Of a stretch of DNA of 64,000 bases, positions 14,740-19,726 are shown piece by piece; position 1 is the first letter of the stretch, and the number at the start of each line of letters is the position of its first letter. The notes under the pieces are model-generated. The model worked only from the letters and a program-made list of their open reading frames with translations, ran no database searches and was not told the DNA's origin. The translations under genes were made by a program, and so were the position numbers. Source of the DNA: the human T2T-CHM13v2.0 reference genome, Homo sapiens; assembly GCA_009914755.4 (NCBI GenBank), contig CP068257.2, forward strand, positions 23,136,001-23,200,000, given 5' to 3'.

Positions 14740-17700
14740 AATGTAGTAAAACATTCGTAACATAAAATTTGCTATCTTAACCATTTTTAACCTTCTTAAC
14801 CATTTTTAACTGTACAGTTCAATAGTATTAATTCATTCACATTGTTGAGAAACAGATCACTAGAACGTCTGTGTCTTGCAAATCTGAAACTCTATACCAA
14901 TGAAACAACTCCCCATTGCCCCTCCCTTGCTCCTGGTAACCATTATTGTACTTTCTGCTTCTAAGAATTTGACTACTTTAGTTGCTAATTGTAATTAAGA
15001 ATTTGAATACTTCAGTTTCTAATTGTAATTTTAATGTATAATTGCAATTAAACATTATCTTTTATAAAAGACTTTATTTTAGAGCAGTTTTAGGTTTACA
15101 GAAAAATTGAACAGAAGTTAGGAAAATTTTTCATGTACTCCCTGCCTCCACACATACATAGATTTCTCCATTATAACATTCTCAACCAGAATAGAACAAT
15201 AATTACAATGCTGAGCCTACACTGACACATCATTAACACTTAAAGTCCATAGTTTACATTGGAGTTCACTCTTGGTGTTTTACATTCGGTGGGTTTGGAC
15301 CAAAGTATAATGACATGCATTCACTATTCTAGTTTCAGAGTATAGTGTCACTACTCCAAAATTCCTATGTGCTCTGCCTACTCGTAACATGCTTCCCACT
15401 AACCTCTAGAAACCATGATATTTTTATTGTCTTTATAGTTTTGCCTTGGCCAGAATATCATTTAGTTAGAATCTTAGCATCATAGAACATTTAGTCTTTC
15501 AGATTGCCTTCTTTCACTTAGCACTCATTTAAGTTTCTCCATATCTTTTCAGGACTTGATAGCTCATTTCTTTTTAACACTGAATAGTGTTCAGTTTTCT
15601 AGATGCACCCTAGTTTATCTGTCCATTTACCTCACTGAAAGACACCTTGGAAGCTTCTAGATTCTGCAGTATGAATAAAGCTGCTATAAACATCTGTATG
15701 CAGGTTTTTGAGTGGACATAACTTTTCAATTTCCTTCAGGAAATGGCACAACTGCTGGATTATATGGTAGGTGTATGTTCAGATTTTTAAGAACCCCAAG
15801 GCTGTCTTCCAAAGTGGCTGTACAATTTGCTTTCCCAACATAAATGAATGATAGTACTTGTTGCTTGACATTTTTGTCAGCATTTATTGTTGTCAATGTT
15901 CTAAATTTCATCCACTCTACAGATGATTAGTGGTATCTCATTGTTGTTTTAATTTGCATTTCCCTGATGATATAAGATGTAGTGTATCTTTTCAGATACT
16001 AATTTACCATCTGTTCATGTTCTTTGAGGAAGTGTCCATAATGATCTTTGGCCCATTTTTTTTTTAATTGGGTTGTTTGTCCTCTTATTGGTTAGTCTTA
16101 AGAGTTCTTTGCATCTTTTGGATAACAGTATTTTATCAGATATGTCTTTTGTGAACATTTTCTACCAGTATGTGACTAGCCTTTTCATTCTTTTGATGAT
16201 GTCTTTCTCAAAGCAGAAGTTTTAAGAATTTTAATGAAGCCTAGCTTATCAGTTATTTCTTTTATGGATCCCATCTTAGTGTTACATCTACAAAGTCATT
16301 GCCAAGCCCTAGCTCATTCTAGATTTCTCCTATGTTATCGTCTATTATTTTTATAGTTTTGGGTTTTAGATTTAGGTCTGTGATACATAATGGATGAACT
16401 TTGGTGAGGGATGTAAAGTCAGTGTCTATATTCATACTTTGCATGTGGATGACCAGTTGTTTCAGCACCATTTGTCTAAAGATTATCCTTTTACTATTTT
16501 TATTGTCTTTGCTCCATTGTCAAAGATGAGTTGACTATATCTGTCTGGATCTATTTCTGGGATTTCCATTCTGTTTCATTTGTCTATGTGTCCATTCTTT
16601 CACCAGTACAGCACTATCTTGATTATGGTAGCTTTATGGTAAAACTTGAAGTTGAGTAATATCAGTCCTTCAACTTGTCCTTCTCCTTCAATATTGTGTT
16701 AGCTATTTTAGGTCTTTTGCCTCATTATATAAACATTAAAGTTAGTTTGTCAATATTTGCAAAATAACGTCTTGAGATTTTGCTTGAGATTGCATTGTAT
16801 CTATCAATTGAGTAGGAAAGAACAGGTATCTTCACAATATTGAGTCTTTCTATCTGTGAATGTGGAATACCTTTCCATTTACTATGTTCTTTGACTTCTC
16901 TCATTAGAATGTTGTAGTTTTTCTCATATAGATTTTGTATAGTTTTATTAGATTTATGCAAAAGTATTCCCTTTTGGGGGTTGCCAATATAAGAAGTATT
17001 TTTTTAAACTGTCAGATTCTATTTGTTCACTGCTAGTACGTGGGAATCAATTGACTTTTGCACATTAATCTTGTATCCTGCAAACTTGCTCAAATCTTTT
17101 ATTAATTCCAGGAACACTTTTATCCAGTCTTTTAGGTTTTCTACATAGACTATCATGTTATCTGCAAACAAGGACAATTTATTTTTTTCCTTCCCAATCA
17201 GTGTAACTTTTACTGCTTTTTCTTGTCTTATTGCATTAATAGGGCTTGTAGTACAGTGCTGAAAAGCTTTGGTCAGAGAGAACATTCTCACCTTGCTTCT
17301 GATCTTAGTAGGAAAGATCCAAATTTCTCTCTATTAAGTATGATGTTTGCTGTAATTTTTTTTTGTAGATCTTATTTTTCAAGTTAAGGATGCTCTTTTC
17401 TTTTTTGTTTATGTATTTATTTTTTATTTTAATTTTTGTGGGTACATAGTAGATGTATATATTTATGGGGTACATGAGATATTTTGATACAGGCATGCAA
17501 TGTGAAATAGACGCATCATGAAGAATGGGGTATCCATCCCCTCAAGCATTTATCCTTTGAATTACAAGCAATCTATTGCACCCTTTACGTTATTTTAAAG
17601 TGTGTAATTATTATTGACTAAAGTCACCTTATTGTGCTATCAAATAATAAGACTTATTCATTCTTTCCACTTTTGTACCCCTTAACCATCCCCATCCCCC

Positions 17701-18135
17701 CAAGCTCCCAATACCCTTCCCAGTCTCTGGTACACATCCTTTTACTTCTATATTGATGAGTTCAATTGTTTTGATTTTTAGATCCCCTTCTATTTCTAGT
17801 TTACTGAAAGTTTTTTATCATGGATGAGTGTAAGATTTTGTCAAATGCTATTTCTTCATCTATTTATATGATTTTATAATTTTTCTTTCTTAGCCTGTTA
17901 ATATGATTGACTACATTAATTAACTTTTTTGAATGTTGAGTAACTAGCCTTGTATATATGGAATAAATCACACTGGGGTCATGGCACATAATTATTTTCA
18001 TACATTGCTGGATTCTATTTGCTAATATTTTGTCAAAAATTTTTGCATCTATGCTCATAAAAGTCATCACCTATACTTTTATTTTATTTTAATATCAGTC
18101 TGGTTTTGGTATTAGGGTGATGCTGGCCTCATAAG
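14740..18135 (-). mobile_element. Antisense L1 (L1M/L1PB-class) carrying degenerate ORF2 (RT domain) remnants. The element's 3'UTR lies at ~14740-15560 and ORF2 at ~15560-18135.
   Basis: Minus-strand ORFs translate to L1 ORF2: 17864-18070 '[30 protein letters not shown]...INVVNHINRLRKKNYKII' (compare L1 '[61 protein letters not shown]'); 17019-17291 '...[18 protein letters not shown]...[14 protein letters not shown]' (L1 'KLSLFADDMIVYLENP...[13 protein letters not shown]'); 16725-16961 '...HSKWKGIPHSQIERLNIVKIPVL' (L1 '[24 protein letters not shown]'). DNA at 15840 'ccaaagtggctgtacaatttgctttcccaac' and 15390-15700 antisense 3'UTR. Confidence 0.85.
17383..17774 (-). mobile_element. 5'-truncated L1PB-like 3'-end fragment nested inside the older antisense L1 ORF2
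   Basis: Poly-T then 'tattttaatttttgtgggtacatagtagatgtatatatttatggggtacatgagatattttgatacaggcatgcaatgtg...ggggtatccatcccctcaagcatttatcc...aaccatccccatcccccaagctcccaatacccttcccagtctctggtac...gttcaattgttttgatttttagatcc' (antisense of an L1PB-type 3' end). The host antisense ORF2 sequence stops at ~17400 and resumes at 17775 ('cccttctatttctagtttactgaaagttttttatcatggatgag'). Confidence 0.6.
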
Positions 18136-18646
18136 ATGACTTAGGAAGTTTTCCCTGTGAAGCAATTCATTGTGCATTGATGGCCAACATGTCTGAGTCT
18201 GGTGAGATAAAACATCCACCCACACAACAAATTACATGAAGAGGATTTATTATTTACAGATAAGCAGCAAAGGACAATAGAACTTTTTGAAAATATTAGA
18301 TTTGTTTGACAGATGCTTAAAGCTCTGCTCGGCAAGAATTTGAACAATTCACTCATATTTGCTCCCCACAAACTTGTAACTAGAAGTTGGTACTGTCTGC
18401 CCATTTCCCTAAAACAGAAGCAAACACTTTCCTGTCACAATAAAATTACGTTTTTATCCAACTGTTTTTCTTTAGAAACAGCTTTACTTTTGCTCAACTT
18501 ATTTATTTCCATTTTAGTACATGGGAGCATAAGTTTATTCCATGTATTCTAAAAAAAAAATGTAGAGAAAAGGAAGAAGCTACATAAATTTTTCATGCGA
18601 ATTTCTCAAAGATTACATACATGTTTAAATGAAAATGTAGAAAATA

Positions 18647-18930
18647 GGCCGGAGGTGGTGGTTCACGGCTGAAATCCCAGCACTTTGGGAGGTGGAGGCA
18701 GGCAGATCACCTGAGGTCAGGAATTCAAAACCAGCCTAGCCAACATGGTGCAACTCTGCTTAATGCAAATACAAAAATTAGCCGGGTATGGTAGCACACA
18801 CCTGTAATCCCAGCTACTTGGGAGGCTGAGGCAGGAGAATCGCTTGAACAGGGAGGCAGAGGTTGCAGTGAGCCAAGATCGTGCCACAGCACTCCAGCCT
18901 GGGTGACAGAGTGAGACGTTGTCACAAAAG
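18647..18930 (+). mobile_element. Alu SINE whose 3' tail expanded into the adjacent tetranucleotide array. The 17-bp TSD 'gaaaatgtagaaaatag' brackets Alu plus array.
   Basis: 'ggccggaggtggtggttcacggctgaaatcccagcactttgggaggtggaggcaggcagatcacctgaggtcaggaattcaaaaccagcc...cctgggtgacagagtgagacgttgtcacaaaag'. TSD copies at 18630-18646 and 19106-19122. Confidence 0.9.
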
Positions 18931-19039
18931 AGAAAGAGAAAGAAAGAAGGAAAGAAGAAAGAAAGAAAGAAAGAAAAGAAAGAAAGAAGGAAGGAAGGAA
19001 GGAAGGAAGGAAGGAAGGAAGGAAGGAAGGAAGGAAGGA

Positions 19040-19107
<68 letters not shown>

Positions 19108-19110
19108 AAA
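18931..19110. repeat. Compound tetranucleotide microsatellite: (GAAA)n, then (GGAA)13, then (GAAA)~19, about 180 bp
   Basis: 'agaaagagaaagaaagaaggaaagaagaaagaaag...aaggaaggaaggaaggaaggaaggaaggaaggaaggaaggaaggaaggaaagaaagaaag...(gaaa)n...gaaaatg'. The 'K/E/R-rich' ORFs 18881-19126 and 18919-19122 are just its translation. Confidence 0.95.
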
Positions 19111-19427
19111 TGTAGAAAATAGATAAATTACATAAATGTTAGTAAATGGAAATTTTGGTTAGGCACAGATAAACTTCAACAATAAGGCCAGGGGCATATT
19201 GCCATTTAAAAAAAATAAAGTTGAGATATGATTATGTTTAGTGGTGAAGTTATTACTGAATCCAACAGCACTCAGTGATTAAACTCAACTTGTTTATGAA
19301 AACAAAGGAATTTTAATCTTTCTTTGATTTATTGAGAAATACTCATTGGCAAACATCCTTTCTGAATCACCCCAGTGTACCCACTCACACACACACAAAA
19401 TTACTATTATATCATCTAATTGAGCAA

Positions 19428-19726
<299 letters not shown>

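What the first reader, a model, noticed from the sequence alone, without database searches (positions are those of the whole stretch)
18647..19122. An Alu A-tail has grown into a ~180-bp (GAAA)n-(GGAA)13-(GAAA)19 compound STR still bracketed by the Alu's 17-bp TSD
Seen in sequence: the forward Alu body ends at ~18930. The TSD 'gaaaatgtagaaaatag' reappears only at 19106-19122. Everything between them is the original poly-A tail, now a pure tetranucleotide array with 13 uninterrupted GGAA units flanked by long GAAA runs. Established knowledge: (GAAA)n arrays derived from Alu tails are among the most mutable and polymorphic human STRs. Uninterrupted GGAA microsatellites of roughly 9 or more units are the sequence class bound by EWS-FLI1 as de novo enhancers in Ewing sarcoma. 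Inference: this is a likely highly length-polymorphic site, and germline length could influence whether it functions as a GGAA-microsatellite enhancer.
Basis: partly seen in the sequence, partly recalled or inferred. Interest (0 to 1): 0.5.

Follow-up and report, generated by a model that had tools for sequence, protein, structure and literature searches.

The report
Alu tail grown into GGAA/GAAA microsatellite
This is an old human Alu element whose poly-A tail has turned into a roughly 180-base AAAG/AAGG short tandem repeat, a real but ordinary and well-documented kind of repeat that sequence alone marks as probably length-variable and a possible EWS-FLI1 binding site in Ewing sarcoma.

Summary
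A full-length AluS body lies at 18647-18925 (+). It is bracketed by a perfect 17-bp direct repeat, GAAAATGTAGAAAATAG, at 18631-18647 and 19106-19122, and these are the only two copies in the 64-kb window. Everything between the Alu body and the 3' copy is purine. Its exact structure is AAAAG AG AAAG AG (AAAG)2 AAGG AAAG AAG (AAAG)4 AAAAG (AAAG)2 (AAGG)13 (AAAG)17.

- The 3' GAAA run has 17 in-phase units (18 if an overlapping unit is counted), not 19.
- The 5' part is short and interrupted, not a long pure GAAA run.

The origin reading is well supported: an Alu A-tail converted by A-to-G changes and replication slippage. The two functional inferences could not be tested here. I found no second allele or orthologue and could not map the locus. 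Both inferences agree with published genome-wide data. Thirteen consecutive GGAA units exceed the >9 and 11-repeat thresholds for EWS-FLI1 binding. About 71% of hg19 regions with at least 6 consecutive GGAA motifs overlap EWS/FLI peaks.

This locus is one of thousands of its kind. It is already known in kind, and interest is low.

The parts
18631..18647 (+). 5' copy of the target-site duplication, GAAAATGTAGAAAATAG. The last G is shared with Alu position 1.
   Evidence: Exact 17-mer with only two copies in the window; family D2.
18647..18925 (+). Full-length, old AluS body (consensus positions 1-282).
   Evidence: Best match is AluSx, with 241 matches and 38 mismatches. Non-CpG divergence is 18/234 (7.7%), and 18 of 24 CpGs are lost. 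Left and right monomer homology appears as repeat D1.
18926..18986 (+). Degenerate proximal part of the former A-tail: AAAAG AG AAAG AG (AAAG)2 AAGG AAAG AAG (AAAG)4 AAAAG (AAAG)2.
   Evidence: Tokenisation.
18987..19038 (+). (AAGG)13, which is the uninterrupted (GGAA)13 at 18989-19040. It is a run of ETS core motifs.
   Evidence: It is the only run of 3 or more GGAA/TTCC units in the 64-kb window.
19039..19106 (+). Pure (AAAG)17 block. The last G is shared with the 3' target-site duplication.
19106..19122 (+). 3' copy of the target-site duplication, GAAAATGTAGAAAATAG.
   Evidence: family D2.

Best explanation
An AluS element inserted by L1-mediated target-primed reverse transcription into an A-rich site, duplicating 16-17 bp of the target. 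This probably happened tens of millions of years ago.

Inferred steps, none observed directly:
- A-to-G substitutions in the poly-A tail created AAAG seeds.
- Replication slippage amplified the seeds.
- A further A-to-G change in one AAAG unit made AAGG, in the same phase, and slippage amplified that variant to 13 copies.
- The tail grew from a few tens of bases to about 180.
- The Alu-proximal end has decayed into interrupted units. The distal (AAGG)13(AAAG)17 part is still pure and therefore still prone to slippage.

The tract is most likely a selectively neutral, length-variable short tandem repeat in normal cells. By sequence alone, its 13 consecutive GGAA units also place it among the several thousand human GGAA microsatellites that EWS-FLI1 can occupy and open in Ewing sarcoma cells. 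That is a latent, context-dependent property, not a demonstrated function of this locus.
For: Shown by the sequence:
- A perfect 17-bp direct repeat brackets the Alu plus array, with only two copies in the window and P about 3e-10 per fixed position.
- The Alu is full length and of AluS type.
- It is old: 7.7% non-CpG divergence and 18 of 24 CpGs lost.
- The 180 nt between the Alu body and the 3' duplication contain only A and G, so no foreign sequence is present.
- The AAGG and AAAG blocks are in the same phase and differ by one transition per unit.

Comparison within the window:
- The other 17 Alus have tails that end within about 45 nt.
- Several of those tails carry small (GAAA)3-5 seeds, for example 2436-2455, which look like earlier stages of the same process.

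Literature:
- Alu poly-A tails average about 35 bp, and about 15% of the oldest Alu tails have spawned new repeat motifs (PMC7027126).
- AGAA is the commonest interruption of GGAA arrays and AG the commonest in AAAG arrays (PMC13082088 Table 1). Both are seen here.
- AAAG and GGAA account for 98% of loci with more than 18 consecutive units, and their heterozygosity rises most strongly with run length.
- 4,172 of 5,833 hg19 regions (71.5%) with at least 6 consecutive GGAA motifs overlap EWS/FLI peaks, and binding and activation peak at 10-11 and 13-14 consecutive motifs (PMC5665490).
- Accessibility rises steeply above 11 consecutive GGAA (PMC13082088).
Against: - I could obtain no second allele and no orthologue, so in-situ growth, current polymorphism and the age of the array are inferred rather than observed.
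- The L1 endonuclease site at the duplication boundary (top strand AT/GAAAA) only approximates the TT/AAAA consensus, and the boundary is ambiguous by up to 5 nt.
- The window could not be mapped, so no EWS-FLI1 occupancy, chromatin or target-gene data could be consulted.
- Neither total nor consecutive GGAA length predicts nearby gene expression overall (PMC13082088).
Confidence: 0.88

Rival explanations
1. The array is a functionally consequential EWS-FLI1 neo-enhancer. In Ewing sarcoma cells the fusion protein binds the (GGAA)13 block as a multimer, opens chromatin and activates a nearby gene, and the inherited repeat length tunes that output or disease risk.
For: - Thirteen consecutive GGAA units on one strand exceed the >9 threshold (PMC2654724) and the 11-repeat hinge (PMC13082088).
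- They fall in the 13-14 peak for binding and activation (PMC5665490).
- 71.5% of regions with at least 6 consecutive motifs are bound in A673 cells.
- Allele-specific binding favours longer alleles (abstract of PMC13082088).
Against: - No locus-specific data exist here, because the window could not be mapped.
- No coding gene or promoter was recognised near the array. Ten of the 25 ORFs of 90 aa or more were scanned against Pfam, and the only hit was a decayed reverse-transcriptase fragment. The region is AT-rich at about 35% GC.
- Binding does not equal regulation: repeat length is not associated with nearby gene expression overall.
- Thousands of such sites exist, and only a subset drive genes.
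Confidence: 0.1
2. The array did not grow in place. Either it was inherited from a source Alu whose tail was already patterned, or it was a microsatellite that already existed at the target site.
For: Alu tails are copied from the source element, so a short AAAG pattern could have been inherited. Three other Alu tails in the window carry short GAAA or AAAG patterns.
Against: - A pre-existing target-site repeat would lie outside the duplications, not between the Alu and the 3' duplication.
- The reconstructed empty site contains no repeat.
- A 180-nt tail far exceeds typical tail lengths, which average about 35 bp, and retrotransposition efficacy rises with tail length only up to about 50 bp (PMC7027126).
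- A pure (AAGG)13(AAAG)17 next to a 7.7%-diverged Alu body implies ongoing homogenisation by slippage, not a relic as old as the Alu.
Confidence: 0.04
3. The array length or structure in this sequence is an assembly artefact, either collapsed or mis-sized.
For: - Long short tandem repeats are error-prone in assemblies.
- The one independent contig recovered for this locus (L001, a short-read metagenome assembly) became chimeric inside the Alu before reaching the array.
Against: - The array sits in a coherent structure: Alu, then tail, then an exact target-site duplication.
- Its block structure and interruptions are of the types typical of real alleles.
- The 981 bp of unique 5' flank is identical in the independent human contig.
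- An artefact could change unit counts but not the existence of the repeat.
Confidence: 0.04
4. The 185-nt homopurine/homopyrimidine mirror-repeat tract matters in normal cells. It might act as a triplex (H-DNA) former or replication and transcription impediment, or as a binding platform for native ETS factors or A/T-rich-repeat binders.
For: - It is an uninterrupted purine run of 185 nt.
- (AAAG)n and (AAGG)n are each mirror-symmetric, as can be seen by inspection.
- AAAG repeats of 19-26 units are somatically unstable in blood, under control of mismatch-repair genes (PMC12935551).
- ZNF384 is reported to prefer A/T-rich repeats, including (AAAG)n (bioRxiv 10.1101/2025.04.10.648102).
Against: - Nothing was tested here.
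- There is no evidence that the region is transcribed or lies near a gene.
- The reference (AAAG)17 is below the 19-26 range studied.
- Such tracts are common, and most have no known effect.
Confidence: 0.05

Closest known systems
Microsatellites derived from Alu poly-A tails (Arcot et al. 1995, cited in PMC7027126; 'spawned' repeats in old Alu tails, PMC7027126)
   Same: The array lies exactly between the Alu 3' end and the 3' target-site duplication. Its A-rich motifs derive from poly-A by A-to-G changes. The Alu-proximal end is degenerate and the core is pure. The element is old (AluS).
   Different: Nothing differs in kind. It is longer than the typical Alu tail (about 180 nt against a mean near 35 bp) and is a two-motif compound array.
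EWS-FLI1-responsive GGAA microsatellites, such as the NR0B1 promoter repeat and the genome-wide bound set (PMC2654724, PMC5665490, PMC13082088)
   Same: It has 13 consecutive GGAA units on one strand, within the range best bound and most activating. AGAA units flank the block, and AGAA is the commonest interruption type at such loci.
   Different: Occupancy, chromatin opening and a target gene are not shown for this locus. No recognisable gene or promoter was seen near it in the window.
Highly mutable or somatically unstable AAAG repeats, such as the ADGRE2 intron repeat, chr2:232.4 Mb (PMC12935551) and chr7:2.5 Mb (AAAG)n (PMC11326147)
   Same: It contains a pure AAAG block of comparable motif and purity.
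   Different: The 17 units in this sequence fall below the 19-26-unit 'mid-length' and the long alleles for which instability was measured. No instability data exist for this locus.

Membership tests
Alu SINE insertion (AluS) made by L1 target-primed reverse transcription | A dimeric, 7SL-derived body of about 282 bp with an A-rich linker | tested here: met
   Aligns to AluSx consensus positions 1-282 with 241 matches and 38 mismatches, better than AluY or AluJo (consensus from memory). Left and right monomer homology is 72% over 74 nt (D1). No Rfam family reached its gathering score in the window, so this gave no independent check.
Alu SINE insertion (AluS) made by L1 target-primed reverse transcription | Flanking target-site duplication of roughly 7-20 bp | tested here: met
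   A perfect 17-bp repeat at 18631-18647 and 19106-19122, unique to these two sites.
Alu SINE insertion (AluS) made by L1 target-primed reverse transcription | L1 endonuclease-type target (top strand TT/AAAA) at the 5' edge of the duplication | tested here: inconclusive
   The junction reads AAAT/GAAAATG. It is A-rich and close to the consensus but not exact, and the edge is ambiguous by up to 5 nt.
Alu SINE insertion (AluS) made by L1 target-primed reverse transcription | A 3' A-rich tail directly after the body | tested here: met
   18926-19105 is 100% purine and A-rich, and starts with AAAAG.
Microsatellite derived from an Alu tail | The repeat occupies the interval between the Alu 3' end and the 3' target-site duplication, with no other sequence | tested here: met
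   Tokenisation shows only A(n)G(n) units from 18926 to 19106.
Microsatellite derived from an Alu tail | Length polymorphism among individuals or differences among species | not testable with these tools
   No spanning contig was found. The one human contig recovered is chimeric inside the Alu.
EWS-FLI1-responsive GGAA microsatellite | At least 3-4 consecutive GGAA on one strand for binding, and more than 9-11 for strong in vivo binding or activation | tested here: met
   (GGAA)13 at 18989-19040. Thresholds come from PMC2654724, PMC5665490 and PMC13082088.
EWS-FLI1-responsive GGAA microsatellite | EWS-FLI1 occupancy and EWS-FLI1-dependent accessibility or H3K27ac in Ewing sarcoma cells | not testable with these tools
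   The window could not be mapped to genome coordinates, and no ChIP or ATAC data are available here.
EWS-FLI1-responsive GGAA microsatellite | A linked gene whose expression depends on the repeat | not tested
   No gene was identified in the window. Ten of the 25 ORFs of 90 aa or more were scanned against Pfam, and the only hit was a reverse-transcriptase remnant.
Homopurine/homopyrimidine mirror repeat able to form H-DNA | A long uninterrupted purine/pyrimidine tract with mirror symmetry | tested here: met
   A 185-nt purine run. The (AAAG)17 and (AAGG)13 blocks read the same in both directions, as seen by inspection.
Homopurine/homopyrimidine mirror repeat able to form H-DNA | Triplex formation under superhelical stress or an effect on replication | not testable with these tools
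   This requires an experiment.

The most novel reading that the evidence does not exclude
This particular Alu-tail array could be a germline length-dependent EWS-FLI1 neo-enhancer. Its (GGAA)n allele size, possibly together with expansion or conversion of the adjacent pure (AAAG)17 block into more GGAA units, would measurably alter expression of an oncogenic target gene or Ewing sarcoma susceptibility. That would tie an ancient Alu insertion directly to cancer risk variation.
Probability: 0.04. Interest if true: 0.4.

Novelty: already known. Interest (0 to 1): 0.1.

Why it matters
The locus is a clean example of how a retrotransposon tail becomes a compound short tandem repeat, and of how such repeats supply GGAA arrays that an oncogenic fusion protein can use as enhancers. 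The example itself adds nothing new. Tetranucleotide repeats of this type are catalogued genome-wide: 176,778 tetramer loci in T2T-CHM13, and 5,833 hg19 regions with at least 6 consecutive GGAA motifs. Their origin, mutability and EWS-FLI1 responsiveness are established. The locus would matter only if it proved to control a relevant gene.

Tried and rejected
1. Looking for other alleles or orthologues in public collections.
- Exact-pattern scans of metagenome contigs and genome contigs with a 38-mer from the 3' flank found nothing.
- Scans with a 30-mer spanning the locus-specific Alu end and tail junction also found nothing.

2. Fetching contigs through ORFs next to or across the array.
- Only the 79-aa ORF at 18313-18552 was on record, on a human lung metagenome contig (L001).
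- L001 is 100% identical to the window over 981 bp of unique 5' flank. This shows the window is human.
- L001 then switches to a different Alu copy from about 18693 onward, so it is a chimeric assembly and says nothing about the array.
- The GTF2I-domain ORF on L001 belongs to the foreign half and was disregarded.

3. An Rfam scan of the window at gathering thresholds gave no hits, so it provided no independent Alu or 7SL call and no RNA gene that might have helped map the locus.

4. Mapping the window through coding exons.
- The 25 ORFs of 90 aa or more look like repeat-derived or random reading frames.
- Ten of them were scanned against Pfam and gave only a sub-threshold RVT_1 hit.
- A six-frame scan of all 548 stop-free segments (30,814 residues) was prepared but not run. 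The chance of mapping the locus was low, and mapping would not change the verdict.

5. I ran no further search on the low-complexity translation of the array. Hits would come from every AAAG/AAGG repeat in every genome.

Full report
**What is in the sequence**

Reading 18400-19400 and parsing it shows three parts in order on the + strand.
- A 17-mer, GAAAATGTAGAAAATAG, lies at 18631-18647.
- A full-length Alu runs from 18647 to 18925.
- A 180-nt tract made only of A and G follows (18926-19105), and then the same 17-mer again at 19106-19122.

The 17-mer occurs only at these two places in the 64-kb window on either strand, and the match cannot be extended by one base on either side. The repeat finder reports the same pair (family D2). 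Given the window's base composition, the chance of this 17-mer at one fixed position is 3.4e-10. TRF scores the tract 232 (period 4, 43.2 copies, 95% matches), the highest in the window.

**Exact anatomy of the array**

The structure is AAAAG AG AAAG AG (AAAG)2 AAGG AAAG AAG (AAAG)4 AAAAG (AAAG)2 (AAGG)13 (AAAG)17, followed by AAAA-TGTAG of the duplication.
- In GGAA phase, the uninterrupted block is (GGAA)13 at 18989-19040.
- The count of 19 GAAA units is too high. There are 17 in-phase units, or 18 if a unit overlapping the last GGAA is counted.
- The 5' side is not a long pure GAAA run. It is a short, interrupted segment whose longest run is 4-5 units.
- The purine run is 185 nt (18926-19110), the only purine or pyrimidine run of 40 nt or more in the window. 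The GGAA block is the only run of 3 or more GGAA/TTCC units in the window.

**The Alu**

It fits AluSx best, over consensus positions 1-282, with 241 matches and 38 mismatches. The matches were 228 for AluY and 224 for AluJo.
- Twenty of the 38 mismatches are at consensus CpG positions, and 17 of those are C>T or G>A.
- Only 6 of 24 CpGs survive.
- Non-CpG divergence is 18/234, or 7.7%.

This is an old AluS. I infer an age of tens of millions of years from that divergence and from general knowledge of when AluS elements amplified. The inference was not tested against other species.

**Is the array the former A-tail?**

Anything lying between an Alu body and its 3' target-site duplication must have arrived with the Alu or arisen there afterwards. 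A repeat already present at the target would lie outside the duplications. The interval contains no base other than A and G, so there is no sign of a second insertion.

The other 17 Alus in the window have tails that end within about 45 nt. Three of them carry small AAAG/GAAA seeds, such as (GAAA)5 at 2436-2455, and look like earlier stages of the same process.

Published work puts the mean Alu tail at about 35 bp and reports that about 15% of the oldest Alu tails have spawned new repeat motifs (PMC7027126). A tail of 180 nt therefore has to reflect growth after insertion. The AAGG and AAAG blocks are in phase and differ by one transition per unit, as expected if one AAAG unit mutated to AAGG and slippage then amplified the variant.

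A pure distal core next to a 7.7%-diverged Alu implies that slippage has kept homogenising the array long after insertion. The interrupted proximal part is the decayed end. The interruption types seen here (AG within AAAG, AGAA next to GGAA) are the commonest ones genome-wide (PMC13082088 Table 1). All of these steps are inference from one sequence.

**Attempts to bring in other copies of the locus**

- Exact-pattern scans of the metagenome and prokaryote-genome collections, looking for human contaminant contigs, found nothing with either a 3'-flank 38-mer or an Alu-end/tail 30-mer.
- ORF look-ups found one contig, from a human lung metagenome (L001).
- L001 is identical to the window over all 981 bp of unique 5' flank, which establishes that the window is human.
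- From about 18693, inside the Alu, L001 follows a different Alu copy and never reaches the array.
- ORFs spanning the array or lying 3' of it are not on record.

Polymorphism, orthology and assembly correctness therefore could not be tested here.

**Surroundings**

- The region is AT-rich, at about 29-44% GC per 4 kb.
- It holds 18 Alus.
- It contains a decayed reverse-transcriptase ORF at 17019-17291 (RVT_1, E = 1.2e-4, below Pfam's cut-off).
- The 25 ORFs of 90 aa or more look like repeat-derived or random frames. Nine of the ten scanned against Pfam had no hit.
- No Rfam family reaches threshold in the window.

I could not map the window to a chromosome or gene. The published lists of EWS-FLI1-bound microsatellites therefore could not be consulted for this locus.

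- Johnson et al. counted 5,833 hg19 regions with at least 6 consecutive GGAA motifs. Of these, 4,172 (71.5%) overlap EWS/FLI peaks in A673 cells, and binding and activation peak at 10-11 and 13-14 consecutive motifs (PMC5665490).
- A 2026 long-read preprint found accessibility rising steeply above 11 consecutive GGAA. It found maximum consecutive length more informative than total length, and no overall association of repeat length with nearby gene expression (PMC13082088).
- The same preprint reports that heterozygosity rises with run length most strongly for GGAA, AAAG and AGAT, and that AAAG and GGAA make up 98% of loci with more than 18 consecutive units.
- AAAG repeats of 19-26 units expand somatically in blood (PMC12935551).
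- An (AAAG)n locus is among the most recurrently mutating repeats in a four-generation pedigree (PMC11326147).

The inferences 'probably length-polymorphic' and 'sequence-competent for EWS-FLI1' are therefore reasonable priors. I would put occupancy in a Ewing sarcoma line at roughly 0.6-0.7, based on Johnson's table. They are priors for a class of thousands of loci, not findings about this one.

**Verdict**

Mechanistically it is an Alu A-tail converted by point mutation and slippage into a compound AAAG/AAGG repeat. It is most likely neutral and variable in normal cells, and a latent EWS-FLI1 site in Ewing sarcoma. The kind is fully known, and loci like it are catalogued genome-wide. A specialist would not be surprised by it, and it opens no new question. 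Interest is 0.1.

Noticed in passing
window 19445-19726 (-), with its T-run at 19428-19444: A second AluS lies in inverted orientation, tail to tail with the Alu of the finding. Its body is 519 bp away, and the two align at 217/283 identity as reverse complements. If the region is transcribed, such an inverted pair could form double-stranded RNA, a typical substrate for A-to-I editing.
   Followed up: partly
window 2427-2465, 4750-4797 (- strand tail) and 63290-63335 (- strand tail): Three other Alu tails carry short AAAG/GAAA seeds, for example (GAAA)5 at 2436-2455. They look like early stages of the process that produced the large array.
   Followed up: partly
L001 (ENA ERZ940582, human lung metagenome contig) 1-3087: This public metagenome contig is host (human) DNA and is a chimeric assembly. 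Positions 1-981 are identical to window 17666-18646. Inside the Alu it switches to another locus, which carries an ORF with a Pfam GTF2I hit.
   Followed up: yes
window 13448-13492 and 59736-59771: Two long dinucleotide repeats, (GT)22.5 at 95% matches and a perfect (GT)18. They are also likely to be length-polymorphic.
   Followed up: no
window 61558-61682 and 61770-62210: Tandem units of 24 and 41 bp (GCTGATCGGTCCATTTTGACAGAGA...) sit next to a GC-rich stretch with long overlapping ORFs on both strands. From memory this resembles an LTR12 (HERV9 LTR). It was not verified, because no repeat library is available here.
   Followed up: no
window 17019-17291 (-): A 90-aa ORF has a sub-threshold RVT_1 match (E = 1.2e-4, 22.3 bits against a cut-off of 29.6). 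It is probably a decayed L1 ORF2 fragment about 1.3 kb upstream of the Alu.
   Followed up: partly
window 18537-18573 vs 18612-18648: A weak direct repeat (73% over 37 nt, spaced 75 bp apart) in the pre-insertion target region includes an AAAATGTAGAGAAAAG motif resembling the target-site duplication. It may be chance or an old local duplication.
   Followed up: no
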